Made by a program: the position numbers and the translations under genes. Below the pieces are notes generated by a model. That model did not search any database, had not been told where the DNA came from, and worked only from the letters and a program-made list of their open reading frames with translations. From Minisyncoccota bacterium (lineage in GTDB: Bacteria > Patescibacteriota > Minisyncoccia > UBA6257 > JAKLIH01), in contig JAQVPP010000001.1 in NCBI GenBank assembly GCA_028702045.1, forward strand, positions 1 through 44,301: a stretch of DNA of 44,301 nucleotides, in the 5' to 3' direction. Positions 3 to 37,413 of the stretch are shown in pieces (position 1 is the first letter of the stretch; each line of letters starts with the position of its first letter).

Positions 3-548
3 ATTTATTTTCATGAAATAAAAAATGCATATAAAAGCCACAATATGAAAATATGTAAAAAACCTGAAGTGTCCCCATGAGGCTTAATTGATTTAGCTAT
101 TCATCACAAAAAATCATTAAATACAAAGAATAAGAGTGATAAAGATGTTATTTATTGTATTTTTGACGTAGATCAATTTTTCCAAGAAAATCAAAAAGAG
201 TTTTTAAAAGGGATAAAAAGGGCTCAAGAAAATGAAATATATTTAATTTTCTCTAATAAATGTTTCGAGTTATGACTATTACTACATTTTCAAGAAATAT
301 ATAACTGTATGAGTGCTAAAGAATTAGAGAGGCAACTAAAAAAATATATTCCTAAATATCATAAAGGATATAATATTTACCCTGAAATTAAAGATAAAAT
401 GCATAACGCAATAAGAAATAATAAAAAAATTTTTAATATTGATTATACAAAAATTGATTGGCAACAATGGTTAAGTGATAAAAGTAATCCCTCAACAAAT
501 TTTTATCAAATAATTGATAAAATACAAAAAATGCACGAAGAAAATTAA
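3..548 (+). CDS. RloB-like protein, C-terminal part (5' end outside window)
   Basis: Frame-3 ORF is open from the window edge. In-frame TGA at 78-80 and 273-275. The segment IYLIFSNKCFEL[TGA]LLLHF matches the RloB-family SNxCFE-W-LLLHF signature as I recall it. Ends in TAA at 546-548. Confidence 0.55.
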
Positions 549-2705: not shown

Positions 2706-3608
2706 ATGAAAACAGACATAAAATTTAAAATTAAAAATGAAAATGATTATTTAACAATATATACAGATAGACCAGAAGTTATTTGTGGTGTAAATTTTGT
2801 ATATATACCACAAAATCATAAATTAATTGATAAATATAAAAATAAGATTAAAAACTATAACGAAGTTGCAGAGGCTAAAAAAGATATTAAAATAGAAGGT
2901 TTTAATCTTATTAATCCACTTACAAATACAGTAGTAGATATTTGACTAAGTAATGATAAAAAAGATGTTGTAATGGCAGTTCCAGCTCATAATGATGATG
3001 ATTTTGAGTTTGCAAGAAAACATAATATCAAAATGATTCCTGTAATAGAGCAAATCACAGGAACCCCAAGAGAAAATGAAAAATATAAACAAAGTATAGT
3101 GGCTGTGGTCAGAAACCCAAAAACAAATAAATATTTAACCATTAATTGGGGCAAAGATTTAGGTGGAAGACTCTTAATAGGTGGATCAATTAATGAAAAC
3201 GAAACACCACTAGACTGTGCTGTAAGAGAAATTAAAGAAGAAACTGGGTATAAAAATCTTAAATTTATTCAAGAAATATTTCCGATTAATCATCATTATT
3301 TTGCTTTTAGTAAGAATCAGGCCCATAACATAGATTGTACTGGTTTTTTATTTGATTTAATTGATGAAGAAAAAACAGAACAAAATCTAGATGAAGAAGA
3401 AAAATTTAAAGTTGAATGAGTTGAAAAAAGTACCATACAACAAGAAATTAAAGATGAGCTTCACAGTACTGTTTTTAAAAATTGTTTAAGCCCTAGGGCC
3501 TACACAGGAGATGGCAAAATAATAAATTCAGGAATTTTAAACGGTTTAAATAAAGAAGAAGCAACTAACTTAGTTATCAAATTTTTAAAAGAAAATGAAC
3601 AATGTTAA
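2706..3608 (+). CDS. LeuRS CP1 (editing-domain)-like protein with an inserted Nudix hydrolase domain
   Basis: Track ORFs 2706-2945 and 2973-3419 plus a tail to TAA at 3606-3608 share one frame, joined through TGA at 2943 and 3417.
- N-terminal part: YLTIYTDRPEVICGVNFVYIP...NPLTNTVVDI[W]L...VVMAVPAHNDDDFEFARKHNIKMIPVIEQ parallels LeuRS TTRPDT...IPVWAA...AVMAVPAHDQRDYEFA...IKPVI.
- Middle: Nudix box GGSINENETPLDCAVREIKEETGY.
- C-terminus: AYTGDGKIINSGILNGLNKEEA parallels LeuRS G-L-NSG-FNGL.
- No HIGH or KMSKS catalytic motifs. Confidence 0.7.
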
Positions 3609-5032: not shown

Positions 5033-5752
5033 ATGATAAAATACTCAGATTTTAAAAAATTTTTCCTATATATCTTAATAGGAAGCCTTGTTATTGCTGC
5101 AGGAGTAGCAGTAGTTACAGTCTTGGTTGGAGAGTTTAATGAGGTATTATCTAGATCATTATGAACTATTGGTACGGCAGTTATTCACTCTCTAGTCAGC
5201 CTAGGTTTGTTATGAGATAATGATCGCCAAAATACATTTGAAAATTTTTCATTTTTCATTAACATATTGTTTTTCATAATTGGACTTAGTTTTATTACAT
5301 CAATTTTTGGAATTTGAAAGATATTTCCAATTGAGATAATTTGGAAACTATTTCAAAGCTATGCCATAATAGTTGCTACAGCTTTTCATGGAGATACTTT
5401 GTCCAAAGCTTTAGATAAAGAAAAATATATGAGTATGATTGCATATGCAAACTATATATTTGTAATTATAGTTGGACTTATGCTTCAGCCCATTATTTTC
5501 ATTGATAACGCAACAAGAGTTCTTGGTGATATGTATTTCAGAATTCTTGGCGCATCAGCAATAATTGACGGAACATTAAGTGTTTTATTAATTATTTTCT
5601 ATAAGTTATACATGAGTAAGCATCCAAAAATTCAAGAGAATCCTATGGATCCAGCAGTAGAAAATAAAAAACCAGCAGGCAAGAGTAGTATTTGAGTTTG
5701 ATTACTTATCATTTATTTAATAATACTAGTACTTAGATGATTGTTTTAAGGC
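5033..5752 (+). CDS. multi-pass membrane protein, unknown function
   Basis: ATG at 5033 is in frame with track ORF 5399-5695. Six in-frame TGA; ends in TAA at 5750-5752. Several hydrophobic segments. Confidence 0.5.
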
Positions 5753-5852: not shown

Positions 5853-5927
5853 TTGTTGCACTTCGAGTTTATATTCGCCCTGTGTTACTTGACAAATTTA
5901 TCAATATGTTGTATGTTAAAATATAAT
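5853..5927 (+). promoter_or_regulatory. promoter cassette copy 1: conserved upstream element plus TTGACA-17-TATGTT, upstream of cas4
   Basis: GTTGCACTTCGAGTTTATATTCGCC lies exactly 34 nt upstream of TTGACA (5889-5894). The same arrangement recurs at 31051-31118 and 38407-38472. Confidence 0.55.
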
Positions 5928-5950: not shown

Positions 5951-6502
5951 ATGGAAGATTATATCCCAATAACAAAACTTAACGATTTTATTTTTTGTCC
6001 CCTTTCTTTATATTTTAGATCTTGTTATAACAAGTTTAAAGAAAATCTTTTTTATCAAGAGAAAATAATAGAGGGTAAAATGGAACATGAAAAAATACAC
6101 CAAGATAAATTAAAAAATAGGTGAAAATTAATCAATTTTCCAGTTTATAGCTCTTACTATAAATTATTTGGAAAAATAGATGAATATGATGAAATAACCC
6201 AAGAATTAATAGAGTATAAAAATAACATAAACAAAGTTTATGATGGATATAAAATGCAATTATATGCACAGGCAAGATGTCTTGAAACAATGGGATATCA
6301 AGTTAAAAAAATAAAACTAAAATCCATCCAAACAAAAGAAGAAATAGAAATTGCTTTGCCATCCCGTACGGAAATGAAAAAATTTGAAAAATTAATTGAA
6401 AATATTAGATATTATGATATTTTTAAATACTTAAAATACCAAAATAAATGTCAAAATAAATGTCGTAAATGTATATACAAAGAACTTTGTAACGATGATT
6501 AG
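5951..6502 (+). CDS. cas4: CRISPR-associated exonuclease Cas4
   Basis: - One in-frame TGA (6122-6124).
- N-terminal Cys (FCPLSLYF).
- GKID and IEYK, i.e. the D...ExK nuclease core.
- C-terminal Cys cluster CRKCIYKELC.
- Lies directly upstream of cas1-cas2. Confidence 0.8.
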
Positions 6503-6504
6503 TT

Positions 6505-7464
6505 ATGTTAACACTACCAGATTTTAAAGAAAAACAAATTTTATTTATAAAAGGCAACAATAATTTAGAAAATACATTAAAGTTTTCTAATGAAAATTTA
6601 ATATTTTATAAAAATGGGAAAAAACATAGCCAATTATCATGTTATAAAATTTTAGCTATATTTTTGTATGGAGATTTTTCTGTAACAACTGTCTTATTAA
6701 GAAAATTTGATGAATATGGAATAGCAGTTTTCTTTTTAAAAAATAATTTAATGTCATATTGCTATTTTAATTTAGGATTAGGAAGTAATTATCTATTAAG
6801 AATTAAACAATACAAGCAGGAAAACGAAATAAATATTGCTAAAAAAATTATTAGAAATAAAATATATAACTCGCATTTACTCCTCAAAAAATACAACTAT
6901 TGCAACAACTCATATAATTTAGACGATATTTTCTCTAAAATTACCAAGGCAGAGGATTTAAAAACATTATTAGGCATTGAGGGCAGTTTTTCTAGAAATT
7001 ATTTTTTAAATTTATTTTGTAATAAAGAAGTAAATCTGAATTGGCGAGGCAGACAACCTAGATTAAAACAAAATATGGAGAATGTTTTGTTAGATATAGG
7101 ATATACTTTTCTGTTTAATTTTATAGATTCAATTTTAAATTTATTTGGATTCGATACTTATAAAGGGTTTTGCCATCAAGTTTTTTTTAAAAGAAAATCA
7201 CTATCTTGCGATATTATGGAGCCTTTTAGGTGTATTATTGATGAAACACTATATTTAATGTTTAAAAATAAAGAAGTTAATTCATATGATTTTGATATAA
7301 AACAAAAAATTTATTCATTAAAATACAATTGTAGTAAAAAATATTGCCAAGCTTTTTTACAAGCAATTTTAAAAAATAAAATAGAAATTTATAAGTATAT
7401 TAGAAATTTCTATTACTATATATTAAACGATAAAGAAGATTTTAATAAATTTATTTTAAAATAA
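6505..7464 (+). CDS. cas1: CRISPR-associated endonuclease Cas1
   Basis: 319-aa ORF packed tightly between cas4 and cas2. Size and position are canonical for a type V-A adaptation module. Confidence 0.85.
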   Translation: MLTLPDFKEKQILFIKGNNNLENTLKFSNENLIFYKNGKKHSQLSCYKILAIFLYGDFSVTTVLLRKFDEYGIAVFFLKNNLMSYCYFNLGLGSNYLLRIKQYKQENEINIAKKIIRNKIYNSHLLLKKYNYCNNSYNLDDIFSKITKAEDLKTLLGIEGSFSRNYFLNLFCNKEVNLNWRGRQPRLKQNMENVLLDIGYTFLFNFIDSILNLFGFDTYKGFCHQVFFKRKSLSCDIMEPFRCIIDETLYLMFKNKEVNSYDFDIKQKIYSLKYNCSKKYCQAFLQAILKNKIEIYKYIRNFYYYILNDKEDFNKFILK

Positions 7465-7468
7465 AAAT

Positions 7469-7750
7469 ATGATTATAGTTTCATACGACATTACTAATGA
7501 CAAATTAAGGTCTCAATTTTCCAAACTGTTAAAAAAATATGGAAGAAGATTACAATTTTCAGTATACGAAATTAAAAATAGTGCACGAATTTTAAATAAT
7601 CTTATTGTAGAAGTAGAGTCTCGTTATAAACCAAGATTCTGTAATTTAGACAGTATTATTATTTTCCATTATTGCGAATCTTGTAGTAAAAAAATAAAAA
7701 GATATGGCTATGCAGTTCATGCAGAAAAAGAGCTAGTATTTTTTGAATAA
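7469..7750 (+). CDS. cas2: CRISPR-associated endoribonuclease Cas2
   Basis: 93 aa. The N-terminus MIIVSYDIT has the conserved Asp in strand 1. Lies immediately before the array leader. Confidence 0.85.
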   Translation: MIIVSYDITNDKLRSQFSKLLKKYGRRLQFSVYEIKNSARILNNLIVEVESRYKPRFCNLDSIIIFHYCESCSKKIKRYGYAVHAEKELVFFE

Positions 7751-7951
7751 AATAGTTGCAGAAAAAGCATTTATTTGGTATTATTAATATATTGATAAGA
7801 ACTTTAACAAATTATTCACTGTAGAAAATTGATAGAAATTGCCGTGTGTGTATTAAAAATAAATTAAAAACATGTTGACAAAAAAGAAAATTATGTCCAA
7901 ATATATTTATTGATTTGTAGATCATAACTTGACTTTTTTGTCAACTGTACT
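7751..7951 (+). promoter_or_regulatory. CRISPR leader (AT-rich) with candidate promoters
   Basis: 201-nt AT-rich gap between cas2 and repeat 1. TTGACA at 7875-7880 and TTGACT at 7929-7934; the -10 elements are weak. Also contains a partial repeat-like segment at 7897-7922. Confidence 0.5.
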
Positions 7952-10900
7952 ATCTAATACATATATTCAATTTCTACTTTTGTAGATATAGTATATCCAT
8001 ATTATAATTTTAAATCTAATACATATATTCAATTTCTACTTTTGTAGATATATTGAGTTGTGGTCTGTATGTGAAATCTAATACATATATTCAATTTCTA
8101 CTTTTGTAGATAGACCGAGTGTCCTTATGGAGCATATCATCTAATACATATATTCAATTTCTACTTTTGTAGATTAGGTCTGAGTTCATTTTACCCCTCA
8201 TTATCTAATACATATATTCAATTTCTACTTTTGTAGATTTAGCTCAGAGCTTTTCCCACCTAAATCATCTAATACATATATTCAATTTCTACTTTTGTAG
8301 ATATGAACAGAACCACTCTTATTATTTAGATCTAATACATATATTCAATTTCTACTTTTGTAGATAAACACCAACCATCCTCTGTAAATTACATCTAATA
8401 CATATATTCAATTTCTACTTTTGTAGATGTGAAGTCTATTTTATACTCCCCTATCTTATCTAATACATATATTCAATTTCTACTTTTGTAGATAAAACAA
8501 TAGCTACTGCATATTCTAAAATATCTAATACATATATTCAATTTCTACTTTTGTAGATGTGTCGCCGTCTGCTTTTGCTTCTGTATAATCTAATACATAT
8601 ATTCAATTTCTACTTTTGTAGATATATGTGCTACTTCAGTTTTTCTAAAAATCTAATACATATATTCAATTTCTACTTTTGTAGATCAAATGATTTCATT
8701 AAATGTACCAAGGCTATCTAATACATATATTCAATTTCTACTTTTGTAGATAGCCCCTAACATTCTCATTACAAGTGAATATCTAATACATATATTCAAT
8801 TTCTACTTTTGTAGATGATACCCATTGTATCATTGCTAATTCTGAATCTAATACATATATTCAATTTCTACTTTTGTAGATGTGGGGTTTTCTTTAAAAG
8901 TGTTTTATCTAATACATATATTCAATTTCTACTTTTGTAGATATAATGAGTACCAACGCCTACAAATAACATCTAATACATATATTCAATTTCTACTTTT
9001 GTAGATGAGGAGGCGACACTTAGTCCTGTATCACAATCTAATACATATATTCAATTTCTACTTTTGTAGATTAAACCGTAAAGGAGAAATGACCAGTTAT
9101 CTAATACATATATTCAATTTCTACTTTTGTAGATCTATCGCCAATTGCTTCTCCTATAACCATCTAATACATATATTCAATTTCTACTTTTGTAGATAGG
9201 AGCTTGAAATAACAAGACCAGTAAAGATCTAATACATATATTCAATTTCTACTTTTGTAGATGTTAAGATAAACATATATGCCGACAACATCTAATACAT
9301 ATATTCAATTTCTACTTTTGTAGATATAATAGAGTTACTACAACAACACAAATCTAATACATATATTCAATTTCTACTTTTGTAGATAAGATCAATAAAC
9401 AAGCTTGGAATAAAGCCATCTAATACATATATTCAATTTCTACTTTTGTAGATGTATGGGTTTAATTAACAACTATATTAATCTAATACATATATTCAAT
9501 TTCTACTTTTGTAGATAAGAGCCTAATTATTGGTATAATAAATCTAATACATATATTCAATTTCTACTTTTGTAGATATTTATATATTCATCTATACTAT
9601 TTAACTATCTAATACATATATTCAATTTCTACTTTTGTAGATTGGAAGTGTTATGGAAGTAGGTGACTAAATCTAATACATATATTCAATTTCTACTTTT
9701 GTAGATAGGGTAAAACAATTACGGCGCAAGCGCTATCTAATACATATATTCAATTTCTACTTTTGTAGATCTTGTTTTAATAGCTTTAAAATATTTGTAT
9801 CTAATACATATATTCAATTTCTACTTTTGTAGATACTATATTAGTAATTATATTATCAGTTATCTAATACATATATTCAATTTCTACTTTTGTAGATCAG
9901 AACTACCAAACTGCTGTGTTCAGGAATATCTAATACATATATTCAATTTCTACTTTTGTAGATCAGAACTACCAAACTGCTGTGTTCAGGAATATCTAAT
10001 ACATATATTCAATTTCTACTTTTGTAGATATTAAATCAACTAACATTCTTATATAGAATCTAATACATATATTCAATTTCTACTTTTGTAGATGTTTGTT
10101 TGTTAAACTTGATGAAAAAAATCTAATACATATATTCAATTTCTACTTTTGTAGATCAGGGCCTGAAATTTCAAGCTCCTGAAAATCTAATACATATATT
10201 CAATTTCTACTTTTGTAGATATGTAGGTGAAAGCCCAGTTGACCCAAAATCTAATACATATATTCAATTTCTACTTTTGTAGATGTAAGTGTTTTTGTGT
10301 TCGTTGTATTAAATCTAATACATATATTCAATTTCTACTTTTGTAGATGATAGATGAGTGAAGATTTCAAGAAAATCTAATACATATATTCAATTTCTAC
10401 TTTTGTAGATTAACCTATAAATATGGAGTGACTAACAGAATCTAATACATATATTCAATTTCTACTTTTGTAGATTAGACGGTGCTATATAACCCCGTCT
10501 AGATCTAATACATATATTCAATTTCTACTTTTGTAGATAAATACATTATATAGATAATCAAAACCATCTAATACATATATTCAATTTCTACTTTTGTAGA
10601 TAGAAGAAAAACTTAAAGATTTTTTTAATCTAATACATATATTCAATTTCTACTTTTGTAGATATATCTATTATATTATCTTTTTCAAACTATCTAATAC
10701 ATATATTCAATTTCTACTTTTGTAGATTTAGTGTATATACACTCTTGACGCTAGAAGATCTAATACATATATTCAATTTCTACTTTTGTAGATGAAAGTC
10801 TGTTGATGAAATAAAACAACATCTAATACATATATTCAATTTCTACTTTTGTAGATAATATACCAATGTAATTACTATCAAATCTAATACATATATTCAA

Positions 10901-12701
10901 TTTCTACTTTTGTAGATTGAAATAAAATCATAATGATTAATTGCTATCTAATACATATATTCAATTTCTACTTTTGTAGATCAAAAGAATGTAAGGTTGA
11001 GTACCTGGATATCTAATACATATATTCAATTTCTACTTTTGTAGATGGTGATAATTATTCCTCCAAACTTAAAATCTAATACATATATTCAATTTCTACT
11101 TTTGTAGATAGTGTATAGTATTCCATCTTCTTTAATTATCTAATACATATATTCAATTTCTACTTTTGTAGATATATGGACCACGGTACAGTAAGGCGTA
11201 TCTAATACATATATTCAATTTCTACTTTTGTAGATTTAAGTCTAGTGCTTCTAGTAGTGATTATCTAATACATATATTCAATTTCTACTTTTGTAGATTA
11301 GGTGTATAATAACAAGCACGCCGAACATCTAATACATATATTCAATTTCTACTTTTGTAGATTAAAAGAGTTAAAACATTGTATCTCTTGCATCTAATAC
11401 ATATATTCAATTTCTACTTTTGTAGATTAGGAATATAGTCCTTATATTCAAAATATAATCTAATACATATATTCAATTTCTACTTTTGTAGATAATGAAA
11501 GTTGTAGCATAATCTTGATAGGATCTAATACATATATTCAATTTCTACTTTTGTAGATTCTTCTGGTAGTATACTCATTTCTTCAGATCTAATACATATA
11601 TTCAATTTCTACTTTTGTAGATTTTTGTTATGTGGGGGAGTATGGTTTCATCTAATACATATATTCAATTTCTACTTTTGTAGATATTTGTTAAAGTTTT
11701 GTATAATATTTTATCTAATACATATATTCAATTTCTACTTTTGTAGATGGTGTTGGGGCTCATCATCAAAATAGATATCTAATACATATATTCAATTTCT
11801 ACTTTTGTAGATTTAGCAGGTATATTTGTATATGCTATTGGCATCTAATACATATATTCAATTTCTACTTTTGTAGATTAGAAGAAGAAGATAGGTTGTG
11901 AAAAATCTAATACATATATTCAATTTCTACTTTTGTAGATGTGGAGATAATGAAAAACCACCTATAGAATCTAATACATATATTCAATTTCTACTTTTGT
12001 AGATACATGTCTTCTTTACTCATTATTTGTATATCTAATACATATATTCAATTTCTACTTTTGTAGATCCTGTGCCTCTAAGGTGTCAAGTAAAAGTATC
12101 TAATACATATATTCAATTTCTACTTTTGTAGATTAGTTCTTCTGTGTTTAGTTGAACTTTGGATCTAATACATATATTCAATTTCTACTTTTGTAGATAC
12201 AATGGTAGTAAGGTATAAATGTACATCTAATACATATATTCAATTTCTACTTTTGTAGATTAAAGTATCTGTGGGAATTGGGTTGTAATCTAATACATAT
12301 ATTCAATTTCTACTTTTGTAGATACAATGGTAGTAAGGTATAAATGTACATCTAATACATATATTCAATTTCTACTTTTGTAGATTCTTTCTAAATCTAC
12401 CCAACTATCCATCTAATACATATATTCAATTTCTACTTTTGTAGATATTGTAAAGTTAAAGAATTAAGGCTAGCAATCTAATACATATATTCAATTTCTA
12501 CTTTTGTAGATTCCATACCAATTCTTCAATAGATTAAAAATCTAATACATATATTCAATTTCTACTTTTGTAGATAGATGATAGTGTAAAGATACAAAAG
12601 AATCTAATACATATATTCAATTTCTACTTTTGTAGATGTCCCCTGTTGCTTTAACTGGTATGTCGATCTAATACATATATTCAATTTCTACTTTTGTAGA
12701 T
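7952..12701 (+). CRISPR. Type V-A CRISPR array, 75 repeats / 74 spacers
   Basis: The 36-nt repeat ATCTAATACATATATTCAATTTCTACTTTTGTAGAT is identical in every copy I read. Spacers are 25-30 nt (manual count). The repeat 3' end AATTTCTACTTTTGTAGAT is the Cas12a crRNA handle (stem TCTAC/GTAGA), so the array is transcribed on the + strand. Confidence 0.98.
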
Positions 12702-12780
12702 AGAAACAGAAGAAAATTAATTAGAAAAAAGTAATAAATAATAGTGTTCTTATATAAAAGCGACACTTAGGAAAATTCAG

Positions 12781-12809
12781 TTGATATTTTAAAAATAAAA
12801 TGCTATATT
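12781..12809 (+). promoter_or_regulatory. sigma-70 type promoter between array and cas12a
   Basis: TTGATA (12781-12786), 17-nt spacer, TGcTATATT extended -10 (12801-12809). Confidence 0.5.
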
Positions 12810-12860
12810 AATTATGTCGCCTAAAATTCTTATCGAAAAATATAATATGAAAATAATTTC

Positions 12861-12935
12861 AAAAAAGAGTAGCAATTCCAAAAAAACTTAACCGTTTGGT
12901 AAGAAATTTTTGGGCGACAATTGCTACTCTTTTTT
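12861..12935. terminator. long hairpin with flanking A/T runs (bidirectional terminator or attenuator)
   Basis: The 17-nt perfect arms AAAAAAGAGTAGCAATT / AATTGCTACTCTTTTTT enclose a second helix CCAAAAA / TTTTTGG. Located 38 nt upstream of the cas12a ATG. Confidence 0.6.
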
Positions 12936-12972
12936 GTAAAAATAAAAATTATAATCAATATAAATAATAAAT

Positions 12973-15900
12973 ATGAACACAAAATATTTTTCAGATATTT
13001 TTAACAAATATCAAGTAAGTAAAACCATTAGGTTTAGTTTAAAGCCTCAAGGAAGAACGAGGCAAACCTTGGAGGACAACAATATTATACCTAAAGACTC
13101 TTTAATATACAAAAGTTATTTACAAACAAAACCATATCTTGATGACATCCACAGGAAAATTATTCAACAAGGTTTATCAAAAATAGAGATTGAGATTTTT
13201 AAACCAATTACAGAATTATATTATCAGAAAAATATAAAAACTAATAAACAGGACAAAGAATGAAAAAGCACGAGAATACAAACATGCAAAGAAATTAATA
13301 GATATTTTCAAGAAGAAAAAGATATTTTAAAAAAGAAATATGACTCAAAGAACAAAGATTTTATTTGTTCTGGTAAAGTTTTAAATTATCTAAAGGATGA
13401 ATACCCCGCAAATAAAAGTAAAATTTTTGAGCAACAAGGGTTCCCCAGTTTATTTATCGAATACCAAGGTAAACACAAATATATATTTGATGTATTTGAT
13501 AAAATAACAACATATTTAATTCAATTTAACAAAAACAGAGAAAATCTTTATGAAAATGGAGATAAACATTCTTCAGTAGCATCAAGAGTGCTCAATAATT
13601 TTATTACTTTTTTAAATAATATCGACAAATATAAAAAATTACAAACTATAGAAGAATTAAAATTTTCCTCGGAAGAAAAAGATATTTTTCAAATAGAAAA
13701 TTATGTTTTTGCTTTAACTCAAGATCAAGTAAATAATTACAATAAAAATGTAGGAATATTAAACAAAAAAATTAAAGAAGCACGAGATAAAAATAAAAAA
13801 CTAAATCAAGAAAATTTTATAAAATCAAATTATGTTTTGCTAACTACTTTAGATAAGCAAATTTTAGGTAAAGTGAGTGCGGAAGACAACACAATAAATA
13901 ATAACCAAGAATTAAAAAAAGAGTTTGAATTATTTATACATAAAAGCAATATTTTTAAAGACGATTTTAAAAAATTTATAGAAAATTTCAAAAAACACAT
14001 TTTTATTAAAGAATATGAACATATTTTTTTGTCAAAAAAAATTATAAATACAATTTCTTATAAGTGATTCAAAAACCCTGAAAGTTTTGAATTTGCATTA
14101 CCCCAATCTTCGTCAAGCAAAAATAAAGAATACCCGCATCTTAAATCAATGATTTCTTTGTCAGAAATACAAAATGCATTAAACAATAATACACAAGTAG
14201 AAGGAAAGATATTCAAAGACAAGTATTATGAAGATCTATTCAAAAATCAAAATACTTTAAATAATAAAGATAATTATTTTGATCAATTTTTAGAAATATG
14301 GGAATATGAAGTAAATAATTTAATCCAAAAAACTCAAGATAACAATATAGAGATTGACTGAAATATTTTTAATCAATGCACAAGAAAAGACAAAAAATAT
14401 CAAAACGAAGTAGGAAAAATGAAAACTACGATAGATAATTTTTTAAGAGTTTATCAAATGGCTAATTATTTTCATATTTCACAAAAAAATAAATTAGCCT
14501 TTTCAGACTATTTTTACGGAGAGTTTTATTCTTTTTTTAATGAGTATAGGTTTAACGAATTCTACAATGCAATTAAAAATTTTTTAACAAAAAAAGAAAA
14601 TCAAGAGAATAAAATTAAATTAAACTTTGATTGTGGAACACTTTTAAGCGGGTTTGATAAAAATAAAGAAAAGGATAATCTAGGGATAATTCTAAGAAAA
14701 AAACAAAAATACTACCTAGGTATTTTGGTTAAAGGATATACTTCTTGTTTTGAGGATAAAAACTTGCCAAAAGAAGGAACAGATTATTATGAAAAAATGA
14801 CTTATAAACTATTCCCAGGTGCATTTAAAATGATTCCAAAGATTGCATGGGCCCCAACAAATCAAAAGCTTTTTAATCCATCTGATCAGCTTAAAACATT
14901 AAGGCAAGAATACAAAGAATATCAAGATGCAAAAAAAACCCAGAAAAACAACAAAATTCAATTTAGCGCAACGAAATTAGCAAAACTTATAGAATATTAT
15001 CAAAAAGTTTTACAACTTAGTGGGCATCAATCAGAGTTTAATTTACAATGAAAAGATCCTGCTGAATATTCAGGATTAGGTGAATTTAACAATGAGATTG
15101 ATAAGCAAGGTTATAAAATTAATTTTGATCAAAAAATTAACAGTGATTATATAGATAAATTAGTAGAAGAGGGTAAGCTATATTTATTTCAGATATATAC
15201 TAAAGATTTTTCAGAAAAATCTAACAAAATAAATAAAAATTTAAATACTTTGTATTTTTTAAATTTATTCTCAGATGAAAATATTAAAAATAAAGAGAAA
15301 AAAATTAAATTGTCAGGTAATGCAGAAATATTTTTTAGGCCAAAAAACAAAAAACCTAATAAAAAAATTGATAACAAGGGCAATTCTATTGTAGACCATA
15401 AAAGATATGCAGAAGATGCATTTTTATTACATTTATCTATTGTTTTAAATAACAATGTTCCTTCTCCTCATGCAGGACTTGAAAAATCGTTTAATCAAAA
15501 TATTAATGAAAAAATTATTGGAGACAAAAATGTTAACATCATTGGAATAGATAGAGGAGAAAAACACTTATTATATTACAGTGTAATTAATCAAAATCAA
15601 GAAATATTAGAACAAGGTAGTTTGAATACTATTAATGGTAAACCTTATTTTGATTTATTAAATCAAAGAGAAAAAGAAAAACTAGGACAAAAGCAAAGTT
15701 GATTTGCCATAGGAAACATTAAAGATTTAAAAAAAGGGTATTTATCCGAAGTTGTTAAAAAAATATGTGATCTAGTGGTTCAATATAATGCCATTGTGGT
15801 TTTAGAAAACTTAAATATGAGATTCAAGCAAATTCGTGGGGGGATTGAAAAAAGTGTTTATCAACAATTTGAAAAAGCATTAATAGATAAATTAGGATAT

Positions 15901-16857
15901 TTAGTTTTTAAACAATTAAAAGCTAGTGAAGCAGGGGGGGTTATTAATGGATACCAACTTGTGGCCCCTTTTGAATCTTTTGAAAAAATGGGAAACCAAA
16001 CAGGCATCTTATTTTATACTCAAGCAAATTATACATCAATTACAGACCCTCTAACTGGTTTTAGAAAGAATATTTATATTAGTAATTCTTGAAGTCAAGA
16101 AAAAATAAAAGAAAACATCTATAAATTTACTAGAATTTATTGAGATGATATAGAAAAAAGCTTTGTATTTACTTATAATCCAAATGATTTTGTTAATCAA
16201 AAAATTAAAAAACAAAAGTTTAAATATCGAGATTGTAGTGTATATTCTAAAATACCCAGGATAAGAAGATATAGAAATGAGAAAGATCATTGAGAATATG
16301 AAGTAATAGACTTGAATAAAGAATTTAAAAACTTATTTGAAAGTTGAGGAATAAATTATAAAGCAGATAATATAGTCGAAGAGATTAAGAATAATGAAAA
16401 AAATTTAACAGGCAAAAAAACAATTTTTTTACAAAATAGTAGTATAAATAAAAATTTCTTTAACCAATTTATATATTTATTTAATTTAATATTACAAATA
16501 AGAAATTCTTTTTCCAAAAAATATATTATAGATATTGATAAAAATACAGGAAAAGAAACAATAACACAAAAGGGAGAAGATGTTGATTTTATAGCATCTC
16601 CAGTTAAGCCTTTCTTCTCAACTTTTGCTCAAGATTCTAAAAGTCAAATAATTTCTCCGCTAAATTTACAATCTATTAAAGAAAGAATTATAAGTAATGA
16701 CAAGGACAGAATAGCGAGGGAATTTAATGGAGACGCCAATGGTGCTTATAATATAGCTAGAAAAGGAATAATTCTATTAAACAAAATACGTGAAAACACC
16801 GAAAAACCAGATTTATATATTTTTAAGGAAGATTGAGACAAATTTAATAATCAATAA
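12973..16857 (+). CDS. cas12a: Cas12a (Cpf1) type V-A effector, 1294 codons, 10 in-frame TGA
   Basis: - Six track ORFs (12973-16092) plus a tail to TAA at 16855-16857 are all in frame 1.
- The only interruptions are TGA at 13261, 14065, 14359, 15049, 15700, 16090, 16141, 16291, 16345 and 16834.
- N-terminus KTIRFSLKPQGRT.
- FNKNRENLY motif.
- KLFPGAFKMIPK (PAM-interacting region).
- GKLYLFQIYTKDFS.
- RuvC-I IGIDRGEKHLLYY.
- RuvC-II AIVVLENLNMRFK.
- Nuc LQIRNS.
- RuvC-III GDANGAYNIARKG. Confidence 0.93.
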
Positions 16858-16859
16858 AA

Positions 16860-16892
16860 GAAAATGTGCTCAAAAGAGCACATTTTCTTTTT
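16860..16892 (+). terminator. intrinsic terminator after cas12a
   Basis: GAAAATGTGCTC / GAGCACATTTTC 12-bp stem, AAAA loop, T-run. Confidence 0.8.
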
Positions 16893-17002: not shown

Positions 17003-18679
17003 ATGAAAATTAATAAAAAAACCTTAATTTTTTTATTATTAATTATCTCAGTAATTATTACTATTTTTATGGTTTTTAACACAATTAAAAAACCAAACAT
17101 TCAAATAAAATTAAGTGCTCCAGAAAGTATAAAGTCAGGAGAAGTATTTGATTTGCAGATTGTTATTGAAAACAAATCAAATCTAAATATTAAAAACGCT
17201 GAAGTTTTTTTAAAAACTCCAAACTCAGTTAAGCTAATTGATTCTGACCCTAGTTTTGAAATTGAAAAACTAGACTCAAATGAAAAAGTTGAAAAAACCT
17301 TTGCTCTTCTTGGCACAGGAAAAGAATTGCAGGATCTAAACCTATCTGCAGTACTAAAGTATTCTCCAGAAAACATAAAAAGTTATTTTGAAATTAAGGA
17401 AGATATAGATGTCATAATCAGAGGCAACATTTTTGATTTAAAATTAACTGCCATATCTAAAACATTACCTGAAAATGATTTCAGAGTACTTGTAGAATAT
17501 GATAATTTATCAGGTAAATATTTTGATAACTTAAACTTACATCTACAAAGTTCGCTAAACTATAATGTAATTAACTCTACTATTCCTTTCAAAGACAATA
17601 GTTTCTATATAGGTGCTTTACCTAAAGAAACTAAAGGCACTTTAGAGATAATGAGTTCCTTCTCAGGCAAAGGTGGTAACGAGGAAAAACTCACATTCTG
17701 CCTAGGTTATGAGCACAATGGAGAATTCCTATGTATAGCTGAAAAGAATCTATATGTAGATGTGCTAGAGAATCCTCTAGAAGTTAATTTAAGTATACCT
17801 GATAATTTAAATCCAGGTGATACAGCTAAGATAGTAGTTACATATAAAAATAATTACACAGTTCCATTATCAAATCTAGAATTGAGTATTCTACTAGATC
17901 ATAAGTTATTTGATGCTTCTAAAATAAAAATAAATAATGGCTACTACAACTCATATTTGAAAACAGTATTTTTCAAACCAGCCAATATTCCATCACTAGC
18001 TAGAATTAGTTCTGGAGAACAAGGTCAAGTTAGTTTTGAGATAGGAGTTAAGGACAACTATATTATCAAGAGTTATACAGACAAAAACTTTAGCCTAAAT
18101 ACCAAAGCCTTTGTCCAAGGTAATGTTGTCTTAGATGGCAAGCACCAAAACATACAGGCTAGTGATCAACAACAAATAAAATTAAATACTAAAGTAGACT
18201 TTATCAACTATATGAAGTTTAGGGATAATGAGACTGGTATCATTAACTGTGGATCACTTCCATTAAAGCCAAATCAAGAAACTTGCTTTACTGTACACTG
18301 AGCGCTAAAGAACTACTATAACGACTTAAAGAATGTAAAGATAATAGCTAAACTATCACAGGGAGTAACCTATACAGGTAGATATATAGGTGGATCAGAT
18401 GTAGAGTATAATGCAGACAAACAAGAGTTTATCCTCTATCTAGATTCGGTTAAGGCTGGTAACGGCTTTATCATAAAACCAGATGAGTTCATTTTCCAAA
18501 TCAAAACAATCCCATCTACAAGTGATATAGATTTGCCAAAAAGTATCTTTGACAGTATCAATATAGAGGGAATAGATACATTTACCAATGAACAAATTAC
18601 CTTTAGTTTAAGTGGGTTTAACACCAATATCCTCAACGACTCTAGTATTTTGGGTGGATATAATATAGTATTTGAATAA
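17003..18679 (+). CDS. large secreted or cell-surface protein with N-terminal membrane anchor
   Basis: Track ORF 17003-18301 continues in frame through a TGA at 18299 to TAA at 18677-18679 (558 aa). N-terminal TM segment, then beta-rich repetitive sequence with no catalytic motif. Confidence 0.55.
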
Positions 18680-18688
18680 ATAAATATC

Positions 18689-19996
18689 ATGGAAAACAAA
18701 ACAGAAATATTAATCAATTTAGCAAAAAAAAGAGGCTTCATAAATCAATCATCTGAGATTTATGGAGGATTTTCCAGCTCATATGATTATGGTCCACTAG
18801 GATCTCTTCTAAAAAATAAATTAAAAGAACTTTGGCTAAATAATATGATTAAAAGTGATCTAGACATAGTTCCTATTGATTCAGCTATCATCATGTCTCC
18901 TAAGGTTTGAGAAGCATCAGGCCATGTCTCTAATTTTGTTGACAGTCTAGTAGAATGTAAGGAATGCCACAAAAGATTCAAACAAGATGATGTAAAAGAT
19001 AGTTGTCCTGTATGTGATGGAGAACTATCAGCTCCAAAGAAATTTAATATCTTAATGAAAACATATATTGGTCCAGTAGAGGATAGTGCTAGTCTTGCTT
19101 ACCTAAGAGGTGAGACATGCCAGGGTATTTTCACTAATTTTAAGTGAATCAAATCATCCATGAGGAAAAAAATACCTTTTGGTATAGCTCAAATAGGTAA
19201 GGCATTTAGAAATGAGATAACTCCAGGTAACTTTACTTTCAGAACAAGAGAGTTTGAGCAAATGGAGATGCAATATTTTGTTAACCCAGACAAAGCAGAC
19301 ATATATTTTGATCTTCTTAAACAAAAAAGAATGCAGTTCTATATTGACCTTGGATTTAAAAAAGAAAACCTAAGATTCAAAGATCATGATCATTTAGCTC
19401 ACTACTGTAAAAGGGGATGTGATATAGAGTATAACTTTCCTTTTGGCTGACAAGAGATAGAAGGTATACATAACAGAACTGACTTTGATCTTACTCAACA
19501 CTCTCTATATAGCAAAAAAGATTTACAGTATTTTGACGAAGATAGCAAAGAATCATACACCCCTTATGTGATAGAAACATCTTGTGGTTGTGATAGAGTA
19601 TTACTTGCTATCCTATATGATGCCTTAGACGGAGAAAATTTCTCTTTCCCATATATCTTAGCTCCATACAAGGTAGCAGTACTTCCTCTTGTAAAAAATA
19701 AAGAAAAAATTGTCAAAAAAGCAAAACAAGTATATACTCAATTAAAAGACAATTTTATGGTAGATTATGACCAAACAGGGTCAATAGGTAAAAGATATGC
19801 CAGACAAGATGAAATAGGTACCCCATATGCAATAACTATAGATTTCATGTCTTTAAAAAATAATACAGTAACTATCAGAGACCGTAAAACAAAAAAACAA
19901 TCACGCATTAAAATTAATCAATTAAATGATTACCTTTTAAATAATAAAAAGTCATCTTTTATACAAAAAATATATAACTTATTATGCAAGAAATAA
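18689..19996 (+). CDS. glyQS: glycine--tRNA ligase (class II, alpha2 type)
   Basis: Three track ORFs share one frame, joined through TGA at 18908, 19145 and 19448. Motifs: [67 protein letters not shown]. Confidence 0.9.
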
Positions 19997-31726: not shown

Positions 31727-32791
31727 ATGAATTTATCAGTAGGAATAGTAGGATTGCCTAATGTAGGTAAGTCAACATTATTTAACACATTAACCAAAAA
31801 CAAAGCAGATATTGCTAATTATCCATTTTGCACAATAGACCCAAACATAGGTATTGTAGAAGTACCTGATTTTAGACTAGACAAATTAAGTTCTTTTAGT
31901 AATTCAGCTAAAACTATACCAGCTATAGTTAAGTTTGTTGATATAGCTGGACTTGTTAAAGGAGCAAATAAAGGAGAAGGATTAGGTAATCAATTTTTAT
32001 CTAACATTCGTGAAACTCATTCTATCATATATGTATTACGTGCTTTTAAAAATGAAAAGATTTTAAATGTCCTGGACAAAGTAAATGTAATTGAGTCTAA
32101 AGAAATACTAGATACAGAACTTGCTTTAAAAGATCTAGAGACAATAGAAAAAAGACTTTTCTCTTTAAAAAAGGATGCTAAAAGAGGTAACAAAGACGCT
32201 ATTAAAGAAGTAGAGGTATTAGAGAATATAGAGAGTAAGCTAAAAGAAGGGAATTTAATCAGAGATCTAGATCTATCAGATAATGATAGACAAATACTTA
32301 AGCAATACTCTTTCTTAACAGCTAAACCTTGTCTTTTTGTCCTAAATGGCAAAGATGATGAGGTGGATCCAGAAATAAAAGAATATTTTACTAAAAATAA
32401 TTTCAAGTATATCATCATAGATATTCGTGATGAGTATGATATTGCTAACTTATCTGATTTAGAAAAAGAAGAGCTAGGCATAGAAAATAAATCAGAACTA
32501 GATATACTTATTAGAGAATCATACAAGCTTCTAGATTTGATTACTTTTTTCACAACAGGACAAGATGAGACAAGGGCCTGAACAATCAAAAATAATACAA
32601 AAGCTCCAGACGCAGCAGGTGTAATTCATAATGATTTTAAAGAAAGATTTATTAAAGCAGATACTATTAATTGGCAAACACTAATTGATTCTGTATCTTG
32701 AGAAAATGCTAGAAGCTTAGGATTAATCAGATCAGAAGGCAAGGAATATTTAGTACAAGATGGAGATGTTCTAGAAATTAAACATAATTAA
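31727..32791 (+). CDS. ychF: redox-regulated ATPase YchF
   Basis: Track ORF 31727-32581 continues in frame through TGA at 32579 and 32699 to TAA at 32789-32791. Motifs: GIVGLPNVGKSTLFN, FCTIDPN, VDIAGLVKGA, and C-terminal GKEYLVQDGDV. Confidence 0.9.
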
Positions 32792-36769: not shown

Positions 36770-37408
36770 ATGGGAAAAAATATAAAAGATATCGTAAAAA
36801 ATATGCCTTTATTTTCCAAACAAAATATAGCAATATATTATAAAGGGAAAATTAATACATTAAACGCTCAGATTAAATATGCTTTTAAGACTGGTGATAT
36901 TTTAAAGCTTAAAAATGGACTTTACATGTCTAATGATTTTTATATTAGAACTAAAGATAAAGATGGTTTAAAAGAATATATTGCTAGTCAATTAAAAAGT
37001 CCTTCTTATTTAAGTCGAGAATATGTTATGCAAAAATATAATTTACTAACAGAAGCAATATATGGCATTACTTCGGTTACGTTAAAAACTAGGAAACAAT
37101 ATCAGAATTTTTTAGGATCTTTTATTTATTATTCTATAAAAAAAGATTTTTATTTTGGATATGATGAAAAAAGATTTCTTTCTAATGTTTATTTTGAAGC
37201 TAATAAATCTAAGGCAGTTTTTGATTATTTATATCTTAAAAAAAATATTAGTAAAAATTTAAAGCAAGAAATTTTGGAAGATTTGCGTATTAATTGAGAA
37301 AATTTTTCAAAAAATGATTTTAATTTATTTTATGATTATTGTTTAAAATCAAAATCCAAAAAAATGAAACGTATTGCCAATATTTTAAAAAAAAGTATTT
37401 ATAAATAA
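36770..37408 (+). CDS. abiEi: AbiEi-like antitoxin / transcriptional regulator
   Basis: Track ORF 36770-37297 continues through a TGA at 37295 to TAA at 37406-37408. About 210 aa and lies directly upstream of an AbiEii/DUF1814 gene. The LKNGLYM segment resembles the AbiEi N-terminal domain. Confidence 0.55.
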
Positions 37409-37413
37409 AAAAT

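What the first reader, a model, noticed from the sequence alone, without database searches (positions are those of the whole stretch)
5951..16857. Type V-A locus with inverted architecture: adaptation genes, then a 4.75-kb array, then cas12a
In the characterised V-A loci I know (Francisella, Acidaminococcus, Lachnospiraceae), the order is cas12a-cas4-cas1-cas2-array. Here cas12a lies downstream of the array on the same strand, separated from it by a 271-nt spacer region with its own promoter and a strong hairpin. Effector expression may therefore depend on read-through from the array transcript or on the small intervening unit. The effector is also uncoupled from the promoter cassette that drives cas4-cas1-cas2.
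Basis: partly seen in the sequence, partly recalled or inferred. Interest (0 to 1): 0.65.

Follow-up and report, generated by a model that had tools for sequence, protein, structure and literature searches.

The report
Rearranged Cas12a locus with conserved leader RNA
A complete CRISPR-Cas12a immune system in a recoded (TGA = tryptophan) candidate-phyla bacterium has its effector gene moved behind the spacer array, and the short unit in front of that gene is a conserved, switch-like RNA leader that precedes cas12a in about 80 related systems and may control how much Cas12a is made.

Summary
cas12a is intact only if TGA is read as Trp; the whole window uses that code.

The order is rare. Of 147 Cas12a loci compared, 61 complete ones are cas12a-cas4-cas1-cas2-array. 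Only this window has the adaptation genes and array upstream.

The gap is not a by-product of the rearrangement. It holds a promoter plus a ~125-nt structured RNA ending in a hairpin and T-run. This unit lies directly upstream of cas12a in 15 genome loci and 66 metagenome loci of Patescibacteria-type V-A systems. Covariation is strong (24 of 32 pairs compensatory). A second, mutually exclusive 5'-3' helix also covaries. It has no Rfam match, is not repeat-like (so not CreR or SRU), and has no anti-repeat (so not tracrRNA).

So cas12a moved together with its own regulatory leader. The adaptation genes were the ones left without it.

I read the unit as a transcription-attenuating leader. That reading is inferred, not shown. 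The gene order alone is a minor variant; the leader motif is the more interesting result.

The parts
5889..5927 (+). Promoter-like hexamers upstream of cas4 (TTGACA-17-TATGTT and TTATCA-18-TATAAT).
   Evidence: Consensus scan. The function is inferred. In canonical loci cas4 follows cas12a directly and has no such intergenic region.
5951..6502 (+). cas4 (183 aa, one in-frame TGA read as Trp).
   Evidence: Pfam Cas_Cas4. NCBIfam type V Cas4, 147 bits against a cut-off of 70.
6505..7464 (+). cas1 (319 aa).
   Evidence: Pfam Cas_Cas1, E = 2e-48. NCBIfam type V Cas1, 297 bits against a cut-off of 300. The nearest homologues are 46-51% identical, and the named ones are type V Cas1 of Patescibacteria.
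7469..7750 (+). cas2 (93 aa).
   Evidence: Pfam CRISPR_Cas2. NCBIfam cas2.
7751..7951 (+). CRISPR leader between cas2 and repeat 1.
   Evidence: It aligns with the leaders of seven canonical relatives and shares their motifs, including GATAGAAATTGCCGTGTGTGTATT and an inverted repeat before repeat 1 (A5). It matches the L003 leader at 91% over 35 nt.
7952..12701 (+). CRISPR array: 75 identical 36-bp repeats and 74 spacers of 25-30 bp, in crRNA-sense orientation.
   Evidence: Two spacers are duplicated. No spacer matches elsewhere in the window, in the phage collection, or in three exact scans of viral contigs.
12781..12809 (+). Promoter of the cas12a leader (TTGATA-17-TATATT, with TG upstream of the -10 box).
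   Evidence: In relatives, the -10 box ends 4-5 nt before the start of the RNA model in 20 of 22 well-scoring cases.
12813..12939 (+). Conserved cas12a leader RNA motif. 5' segment A: 12814-12831. Long hairpin: 12860-12936, with outer stem 12860-12876 / 12920-12936. Inner hairpin: 12887-12903. Near-invariant GGGCGACA: 12912-12919. Segment A', complementary to A: 12902-12920. T-run: 12930-12935.
   Evidence: Covariance model hit of 96 bits, E = 6e-18. Covariation. The A:A' duplex is -19 kcal/mol, z = -6.8. No Rfam family matches.
12973..16857 (+). cas12a (1294 aa, 10 in-frame TGA read as Trp).
   Evidence: The RuvC residues D860, E945 and D1254 and the Nuc residue R1177 fall in conserved columns. 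The nearest relatives are 39-45% identical.
16856..16891 (+). Terminator-like hairpin (16 pairs) directly after the cas12a stop codon; it reads the same on both strands.

Best explanation
This is a complete and apparently active type V-A CRISPR-Cas locus. It sits on the chromosome of a Patescibacteria (Paceibacteria/Minisyncoccia-like) bacterium that reads TGA as tryptophan.

The locus is made of two modules that relatives also have, but their order is swapped. Module 1 is cas4-cas1-cas2-leader-array and is unchanged. Module 2 is [promoter - structured leader RNA - cas12a]. It normally heads the operon. Here it lies downstream of the array.

The 271-nt gap is therefore the usual 5' control region of cas12a. 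Transcription starts at about 12814, just downstream of the promoter at 12781-12809. The roughly 125-nt leader can fold in two ways. One fold is a long hairpin followed by a U-run, which is an intrinsic terminator. In the other, the 5' end clamps onto the 3' side of the inner stem; in most relatives an upstream segment also sequesters the 5' arm of the terminator.

I infer that this is a transcription attenuator that sets how much cas12a mRNA is made. In canonical loci it would control the whole cas operon. In this window it also acts as the stop, or gate, for pre-crRNA transcripts leaving the array.

Shown: the anatomy, the rarity of the order, and the conservation, covariation and genomic linkage of the leader.

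Inferred: the transcription start, termination, the switching behaviour and the signal that drives it.
For: Anatomy and protein identity.

TGA is Trp: TGA falls on the invariant W910 and the nearly invariant W1288 of Cas12a and never aligns with Gly. The called genes contain 55 TGA and 22 TGG codons. GlyRS is about 60% identical to Paceibacterota and Parcubacteria proteins.

Rarity of the order: 61 complete loci are canonical, 16 are canonical but cut before the array, 6 have cas12a plus array only, 1 has arrays on both sides, and 1 has cas1 upstream without an array. Only the window has cas1 and the array both upstream (details).

Module 1 is canonical: the CRISPR leader is homologous to the leaders of relatives.

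Leader motif: blastn links the gap to the region upstream of cas12a in six loci. The covariance model finds it in 15 loci and nowhere else in 1.44 Mb. A pattern scan found 66 metagenome loci, with cas12a downstream on the same strand in 47; in nearly all the others the match lies within a few hundred bases of a contig end.

Structure: 97.1% of cells are paired, 24 of 32 pairs show compensatory changes, 0 of 500 shuffles reach this, and slid controls reach 34-55%.

Alternative A:A' helix: median -27 kcal/mol over 20 bp. Its variable parts pair better within a locus than between loci (-9.9 against -5.3 kcal/mol, p = 1e-8).

Two states: transcripts truncated before the 3' terminator arm fold with the A:A' clamp in all 14 loci tested, and most also form an antiterminator hairpin. 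The full-length energies of the two states lie within 0-8 kcal/mol.

Fixed position of the -10 box.

No room for a second promoter: in some loci the cas12a ATG lies only about 20 nt after the T-run (L097, L094, L134).
Against: There are no expression data. The transcription start, termination and switching are all predictions.

The window's own copy is AU-rich and lacks the antiterminator hairpin seen in most relatives.

A TATAAT at 12950-12955 could give cas12a a separate promoter with only a -10 box, downstream of the terminator.

The alignment used for the pair counts was fitted to the model's structure, which biases the counts towards that structure.

The rearrangement rests on a single contig with no close relative. 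The best Cas1 match is 51% identical and the best Cas12a match 45%. A chimeric join inside the 75 identical repeats therefore cannot be excluded.
Confidence: 0.62

Rival explanations
1. The conserved unit is an independent small RNA gene with its own promoter and terminator. It acts in trans, for example by binding Cas12a or another factor. cas12a is then transcribed from a separate promoter downstream of it.
For: The unit has a promoter at a fixed distance and ends in a hairpin with a T-run. The window has a TATAAT at 12950-12955, between the T-run and the ATG (read directly). In many relatives segment A contains UAGAU or GUAGAU, which resembles the 3' end of the crRNA handle.
Against: In several loci the ATG lies only about 20 nt after the T-run, with no -10 box between them. 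That leaves no room for a second promoter. The resemblance to the handle is absent from the window's own copy. There is no complementarity to the repeat.
Confidence: 0.2
2. The hairpin is only a strong bidirectional intrinsic terminator that insulates the locus from its neighbours. It is conserved because it travels with the cassette and has no switching function.
For: The hairpin is long and stable and has A-runs and T-runs on its two sides. It also scores weakly on the reverse strand. In the window it would stop pre-crRNA transcripts.
Against: A plain terminator does not explain three features: the near-invariant unpaired GGGCGAC, the covarying 15-20 bp pairing with a 5' segment about 90 nt upstream, and the promoter fixed just before that segment. 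A constitutive terminator about 20 nt before the ATG would also silence cas12a.
Confidence: 0.1
3. The inverted order is an assembly artefact. Two loci or strains sharing the same repeat were joined inside the array. One possible case is an array-cas12a locus, such as L023, joined to a separate cas4-cas1-cas2-array locus.
For: All 75 repeats are identical, so a join inside the array would leave no trace. Two spacers are duplicated. No second contig shows this order.
Against: Both flanks use TGA as Trp and have similar composition, 22-34% GC. Repeats of 36 bp separated by unique spacers assemble well at ordinary k-mer sizes (general knowledge, not tested here). Even a chimera of this kind would still need an array directly upstream of the cas12a leader, which is itself unusual.
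Confidence: 0.08

Closest known systems
Canonical type V-A loci, e.g. Francisella novicida U112, and the Patescibacteria relatives L003, L004, L015 and L145
   Same: The gene set is the same: Cas12a, type V Cas4, Cas1 and Cas2. The repeat handle AAUUUCUACUUUUGUAGAU is the same, with the L145 repeat identical over 33 nt and the L003 repeat differing at one base. The CRISPR leader is homologous. All parts lie on one strand.
   Different: cas12a and its leader lie downstream of the array instead of upstream of cas4. This is a circular permutation of the usual order. cas4 has acquired its own 200-nt upstream region. The genes are written in a code where TGA is Trp.
CreR (crRNA-like Cas-regulating RNA upstream of Moraxella bovoculi cas12a; bioRxiv 10.1101/2023.03.10.532045) and the standalone repeat units upstream of cas12a (PMC10120712)
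   Same: A small non-coding unit immediately upstream of cas12a, conserved within clades and proposed to tune Cas12a expression.
   Different: CreR and the standalone units are defined by a repeat-like handle. This motif has no TCTAC...GTAGA sequence and no repeat-like stretch. Any action would be through RNA folding and termination in cis, not through Cas12a-guided promoter binding.
Riboswitch or attenuator leaders with competing terminator and antiterminator folds
   Same: It lies in a 5' leader, ends in a hairpin with a U-run, has two mutually exclusive conserved pairings, and has near-isoenergetic states.
   Different: No ligand or protein partner is known, no Rfam family matches, and it is linked to a defence gene rather than to metabolism.
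tracrRNA and scoutRNA of other type V subtypes
   Same: A small structured RNA encoded next to the effector gene, with its own promoter and terminator.
   Different: There is no anti-repeat. Complementarity between the element and the repeat is no better than for shuffled repeats (median z = +0.86). Cas12a needs no tracrRNA (established knowledge, also stated in PMC10120712).
L023, a minimal locus with array - cas12a - array (uncultured Bacteroidales)
   Same: A sense-oriented array lies directly upstream of cas12a.
   Different: L023 has no adaptation genes and no leader motif, and it has a second array downstream.

Membership tests
Type V-A CRISPR-Cas | Cas12a effector with a RuvC D-E-D triad and a Nuc arginine. 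| tested here: met
   NCBIfam cas_Cpf1 scores 643 bits against a cut-off of 300. Pfam finds the RuvC_1, NUC and PI domains. D860, E945, D1254 and R1177 fall in invariant or nearly invariant columns.
Type V-A CRISPR-Cas | Repeat whose 3' 19 nt form the crRNA handle AAUUUCUAC-loop-GUAGAU, transcribed in the same direction as the cas genes. | tested here: met
   75 exact copies on the + strand.
Type V-A CRISPR-Cas | Adaptation module made of type V Cas4, Cas1 and Cas2. | tested here: met
   Cas4 scores 147 bits (cut-off 70). Cas1 scores 297 bits, 3 bits under its cut-off of 300, and also passes the general cas1 model. Cas2 is recognised.
Type V-A CRISPR-Cas | No tracrRNA (no anti-repeat in the locus). 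| tested here: met
   Complementarity between the leader and the repeat does not exceed that of shuffled repeats.
Type V-A CRISPR-Cas | Pre-crRNA processing site: the His-Lys-Lys residues H843, K852 and K869 of FnCas12a (numbering recalled from the literature). | tested here: inconclusive
   The two Lys positions align. The His column is a gap or a Lys in the window and in its whole clade (P0001-P0004, P0008, P0010). The alignment in this short variable stretch is uncertain.
Type V-A CRISPR-Cas | T-rich 5' PAM and DNA interference. | not testable with these tools
   No protospacer was found.
Canonical V-A operon order (cas12a-cas4-cas1-cas2-array) | cas12a lies upstream of the adaptation genes and the array lies last. 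| tested here: not met
   The order here is cas4-cas1-cas2-array-cas12a. It is the only such case among 147 loci.
CreR / standalone repeat unit | A repeat-like sequence giving a crRNA-type handle. | tested here: not met
   There is no match to the repeat outside the array, at up to 8 errors over 36 nt within 7701-13100 or at up to 3 mismatches over the 19-nt handle across the whole window. No TCTAC...GTAGA lies upstream of cas12a in the motif-bearing loci.
Intrinsic (Rho-independent) terminator | A stable hairpin immediately followed by a U-run. | tested here: met
   Hairpin at 12860-12936, then TTTTTT. The feature is conserved in relatives except L007. Actual termination was not tested.
Attenuator / riboswitch-like leader | Conserved, mutually exclusive terminator and anti-terminator pairings in a 5' leader. 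| tested here: met
   Terminator fold. The A:A' helix covaries. Alternative folds. This is in silico evidence only.
Attenuator / riboswitch-like leader | A defined effector (ligand, protein or RNA) that shifts the equilibrium. | not testable with these tools
   None has been identified.
Genetic code 4 (TGA = Trp) | In-frame TGA at conserved Trp positions. | tested here: met
   Of the 10 TGA codons in Cas12a, two fall on W910 and W1288, which are invariant or nearly invariant in homologues. The others fall on columns rich in W, Y or F, or on variable columns, and none falls on Gly. The conserved W motifs of GlyRS and YchF were read by eye.
Genetic code 4 (TGA = Trp) | Presence of tRNA-Trp(UCA) and loss of release factor 2. 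| not testable with these tools
   Neither gene is in this 44-kb window. The only tRNAs are Leu(UAA), Val(UAC) and Leu(AAG).

The most novel reading that the evidence does not exclude
The roughly 125-nt unit upstream of cas12a is a previously undescribed class of cis-regulatory RNA. It would be a bistable terminator/antiterminator leader specific to Patescibacteria type V-A systems. It would couple cas12a transcription (the whole cas operon in canonical loci) to a cellular signal such as free Cas12a, crRNA load or infection state. This would be a third route to Cas autoregulation, alongside tracr-L and CreR. In this window it would also gate pre-crRNA read-through into cas12a.
Probability: 0.35. 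Interest if true: 0.75.

Novelty: new variant of a known kind. Interest (0 to 1): 0.52.

Why it matters
The gene order alone shows that V-A loci are built from two separable modules, each carrying its own control region. It also provides a natural case in which the adaptation genes and the effector are regulated separately.

The leader motif matters more. Only one way of controlling cas12a in natural hosts is known so far, CreR in Moraxella. A conserved, covarying RNA switch found in about 80 uncultured Patescibacteria systems gives a concrete object to test in vitro. It is also a compact natural part that could be used to tune Cas12a expression.

The locus is also a Cas12a written in a TGA = Trp code. 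Standard gene callers therefore split it and databases miss it.

Tried and rejected
1. Close relatives of the window, to see whether the order is a lineage trait: none exist in the collections. The protein-pattern scan of metagenome contigs returned nothing. Several of its patterns contained Trp, which this genome writes as TGA. The best Cas1 match is 51% identical.

2. Spacer targets, to confirm activity and the PAM: no self-match, nothing credible among 50,697 phage records, and no exact hits in viral contigs for three spacers.

3. Rfam: no family matches the window copy or the more typical L015 copy.

4. tracrRNA-like anti-repeat: rejected.

5. CreR or standalone repeat: rejected. The 3' arm in the window (AATTGCTACTCTTTTTTGTAAAAAT) looks repeat-like, but the resemblance is not shared by relatives, whose arm is AACCGTCGTCCC while their repeats are the same.

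6. A degenerate repeat in the CRISPR leader (TTTGTAGAT at 7913-7921): it aligns with a conserved leader motif in relatives, so it is not evidence for a reversed array.

7. HDV-like ribozyme topology: considered from memory and rejected, because there is no P4/J4-2 region and the first helix is 17-20 bp long.

8. Sequence duplicated between the four intergenic regions of the locus, as a trace of the rearrangement: none found.

9. The motif in viral contigs: none found.

Full report
**1. What is there**

Read with TGA as a sense codon, the + strand between 5951 and 16857 carries these parts in order:
- cas4, 5951-6502
- cas1, 6505-7464
- cas2, 7469-7750
- a 201-nt leader
- a 4750-bp array, 7952-12701
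- a 271-nt gap
- cas12a, 12973-16857, 1294 aa

Under the standard bacterial code, cas12a falls into six ORFs because it contains ten in-frame TGA codons.

The array has 75 repeats that are identical to the base and 74 spacers of 25-30 bp. Two spacers are duplicated. The repeat ends in the Cas12a handle AATTTCTACTTTTGTAGAT, in sense orientation. The handle occurs 75 times against 0.2 expected by chance.

The proteins are identified by Pfam, by NCBIfam and by solved Cas12a structures at E = 1e-127. In NCBIfam, type V Cas4 scores 147 bits against a cut-off of 70. Type V Cas1 scores 297 against 300. Cas12a/Cpf1 scores 643 against 300. The RuvC acidic residues and the Nuc arginine sit in invariant or nearly invariant columns.

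**2. The host and its code**

TGA encodes tryptophan here. In Cas12a, TGA falls on W910 (invariant in 13 of 13 homologues) and on W1288 (12 of 13). The other eight TGA codons fall on columns rich in W, Y or F, or on variable columns. None falls on glycine. The called genes hold 55 TGA and 22 TGG codons.

The window is chromosomal. It carries GlyRS, SmpB, two PilB-type ATPases, MurE, YchF, TatD, L19, UvrC, PRPP synthase, an AMP/thymidine-phosphorylase-like enzyme and RNase Y. GC content is 27%. GlyRS is about 60% identical to proteins of Paceibacterota and Parcubacteria.

A TGA-to-Trp code in Patescibacteriota (class Minisyncoccia) was first reported in a 2026 preprint (10.64898/2026.05.24.727570). 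A 2026 paper had still listed only four phyla with this code (PMC13462651). The recoding is therefore known, but very recent. It explains why this Cas12a is absent from the protein collection while the TGA-free Cas1 is present.

**3. Is the order unusual?**

Yes. I fetched the 80 species-representative genome loci whose Cas12a is closest to this one. A DNA pattern later brought in 66 metagenome loci. I located cas12a, cas4, cas1, cas2 and the arrays in all of them. The counts are:

| Layout | Loci |
|---|---|
| cas12a-cas4-cas1-cas2-array, complete | 61 |
| Same order, contig ends before the array | 16 |
| cas12a followed by an array, no adaptation genes | 6 |
| Arrays on both sides of cas12a (L023) | 1 |
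| cas1-cas2, repeat relics, a minus-strand gene, then cas12a (L026) | 1 |
| Adaptation genes and array both upstream of cas12a (the window) | 1 |

The remaining 61 loci are contigs too short or too truncated to classify: 40 carry cas12a without a detectable cas1 or array, and 21 carry no cas12a at all.

The contigs that encode the closest Cas12a proteins (41% identity) and the closest Cas1 proteins (48-50%) are all canonical.

The survey is biased towards relatives of this Cas12a. It is not a census of all V-A loci.

**4. Which part moved?**

The cas2-leader-array junction is the ordinary one. The 201-nt leader aligns with the leaders of seven canonical relatives and shares their motifs. It matches the L003 leader at 91% over 35 nt. 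The L003 repeat differs from the window repeat at one base, and the L145 repeat is identical over 33 nt.

The block cas4-cas1-cas2-leader-array is therefore intact. What has been relocated is cas12a together with whatever precedes it.

**5. The 271-nt gap is a conserved cas12a leader**

A blastn of the gap against all fetched loci hit the region just upstream of cas12a in six canonical loci. Reading the upstream regions showed a shared element in 14 loci.

The element has the following parts, in order:
- a sigma-70-like promoter
- an RNA that begins at a conserved (U)GUCGCC segment (A)
- a variable stretch (V)
- a long hairpin with an outer stem (P:P')
- an inner stem
- a conserved small hairpin (CUUAACCGUUUGGUAAG)
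- a near-invariant unpaired GGGCGAC
- a U-run

RNAalifold predicts 32 pairs, 23 of them with compensatory changes.

A covariance model built from these sequences finds the element in 15 loci, always on the cas12a strand and directly upstream. It finds no independent plus-strand copy anywhere else in 1.44 Mb; the other hits are weak reverse-strand matches to the same hairpins and a marginal partial copy in L006.

An exact-pattern scan of metagenome contigs gave 66 more loci. cas12a lies downstream on the same strand in 47 of them. In nearly all the others the match lies within a few hundred bases of a contig end, so the downstream gene cannot be seen. Viral contigs gave no hits.

On 66 aligned copies, 97.1% of cells pair and 24 of 32 pairs carry compensatory changes. 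No shuffle out of 500 reaches this, and slid controls give 34-55% pairing. One caveat applies: this alignment was fitted to the model.

Rfam has no matching family.

**6. A second, competing pairing**

In every locus the 5' segment A is complementary to A'. A' comprises the 3' strand at the base of the small hairpin, the 3' strand of the inner stem, and GGGCGACA. The duplex is 15-20 bp, with z between -3 and -9 against shuffles. Across 66 unique copies the median is -27 kcal/mol over 20 bp.

Compensatory changes are visible by eye:
- GAUCGCC with GGCGAUC in L007
- GUCCCC with GGGGAC in L073
- UAAAAUUCUU with AGAAAUUUUU in the window

With the invariant core excluded, the variable parts pair better within a locus than between loci (-9.9 against -5.3 kcal/mol, p = 1e-8).

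A:A' and the inner stem use the same nucleotides, so the two cannot form together.

Transcripts truncated before the 3' arm of the terminator fold with the A:A' clamp in all 14 loci tested. In most of these, V also pairs with the 5' arm of the terminator, forming an antiterminator. The two full-length states differ by only 0-8 kcal/mol. The window's copy has the clamp but not the V antiterminator.

**7. Leader or separate gene?**

The -10 box ends 4-5 nt before the start of the model in 20 of the 22 copies with a good promoter match. This places the transcription start at segment A.

The distance from the end of the element to the predicted cas12a start has a median of 69 nt. In some loci it is only about 20 nt from the T-run, with no -10 box in between (L097, L094, L134). 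In those loci cas12a can only be transcribed through the element. This makes the element a cis-acting leader.

In the window the distance is 37 nt. A TATAAT at 12950-12955 leaves some room for a second start site.

**8. What it is not**

It is not a tracrRNA. Complementarity to the locus's own repeat is no better than to shuffled repeats (median z = +0.86).

It is not CreR or a standalone repeat unit. Those are the known small elements upstream of cas12a (10.1101/2023.03.10.532045; PMC10120712), and they are defined by a repeat-like handle. No such sequence is present here.

In many relatives segment A contains UAGAU or GUAGAU, and A' contains AUCUAU. This faintly recalls the stem of the handle. 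The window's copy lacks these sequences, so I give this little weight.

**9. How the locus most likely works**

Shown: the two modules, their order, and the conserved, covarying, cas12a-linked leader.

Inferred:
- The array is transcribed rightwards from the cas2-side leader.
- No terminator-like site lies between the last repeat and the cas12a leader. Pre-crRNA transcripts therefore run into the leader hairpin, where they either stop or continue.
- cas12a is transcribed mainly from its own promoter at 12781-12809. Its level is set by the balance between the two folds of the leader.
- cas4-cas1-cas2 are expressed from the promoter-like site at 5889-5927.
- The locus ends at the hairpin at 16856-16891.

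The signal that the leader reads is unknown. Feedback from Cas12a or from crRNA load is the obvious guess, by analogy with CreR and tracr-L, but nothing here tests it.

**10. Caveats**

The rearrangement is seen on one contig from a lineage with no close relative in any collection searched.

A chimeric join within 75 identical repeats cannot be excluded without reads. Both flanks do share the rare code and a similar composition.

No protospacer was found. Activity is therefore inferred only from the intact genes and the long, perfectly homogeneous array.

**11. Verdict**

The order is truly rare, but the effector is not stranded. It moved with its own conserved control region.

As a gene-order variant the finding is modest. 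The conserved leader motif that it exposed is the part worth following up.

Noticed in passing
Whole window, e.g. cas12a 12973-16857, GlyRS 18689-19996, YchF 31727-32791: TGA is used as a Trp codon throughout (55 TGA against 22 TGG). The genome's GlyRS is closest to Paceibacterota proteins. A TGA = Trp code in Patescibacteriota was first reported only in a 2026 preprint (10.64898/2026.05.24.727570). Table-11 gene calling splits cas12a into six ORFs, and the protein is missing from the large protein collection.
   Followed up: partly
cas12a residues about 788-812 (window about 15334-15408): The His that aligns with the pre-crRNA-processing His of other Cas12a proteins is absent from the window and from its whole clade (P0001-P0004, P0008, P0010), while the two Lys positions align. 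This may point to a different processing chemistry or a slower rate. The alignment in this stretch is uncertain.
   Followed up: partly
Protein P0008 (a database Cas12a homologue): It has Trp where every other Cas12a has Gly (IWIDRWEK, NWDANWAYNIARKW). This looks like a gene from a TGA = Gly (code 25) organism that was translated with TGA = Trp.
   Followed up: no
Window 9898-9927 = 9964-9993, and 12199-12224 = 12324-12349: There are two duplicated spacers, one tandem and one with a single spacer between the copies. Recombination between repeats or an assembly ambiguity could each explain this.
   Followed up: no
L091:1-1500, L023:1297-5994, L026:1-6233: Other non-canonical V-A layouts turned up. 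In L091, cas4 and cas1 lie on the opposite strand upstream of the leader motif. L023 is array - cas12a - array with no adaptation genes. L026 is cas1-cas2, repeat relics, a minus-strand gene, then cas12a.
   Followed up: partly
L085:5297-9454 (GCA_017880035.1): The Cas12a next to one of the closest Cas1 proteins (50% identity) is called as two fragments of 709 and 349 aa with a gap of about 1 kb between them. The leader motif is present upstream at 5117-5245. The gene may be disrupted, recoded or masked.
   Followed up: no
Window 36770-38247: An AbiEii-family nucleotidyltransferase toxin (37414-38247; Pfam, 87 bits) is preceded by a 212-aa ORF with no family match. This is probably an AbiE-type toxin-antitoxin defence pair.
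   Followed up: partly
Window 45-548 and 2706-3608: An RloB-like protein lies near the left end of the window (Pfam, 103 bits). There is also an unusual fusion of a LeuRS editing domain with a NUDIX hydrolase domain.
   Followed up: no
Window 17003-18679: The 558-aa protein immediately downstream of cas12a has an N-terminal hydrophobic segment and no Pfam match. There is no evidence that it belongs to the CRISPR locus.
   Followed up: no
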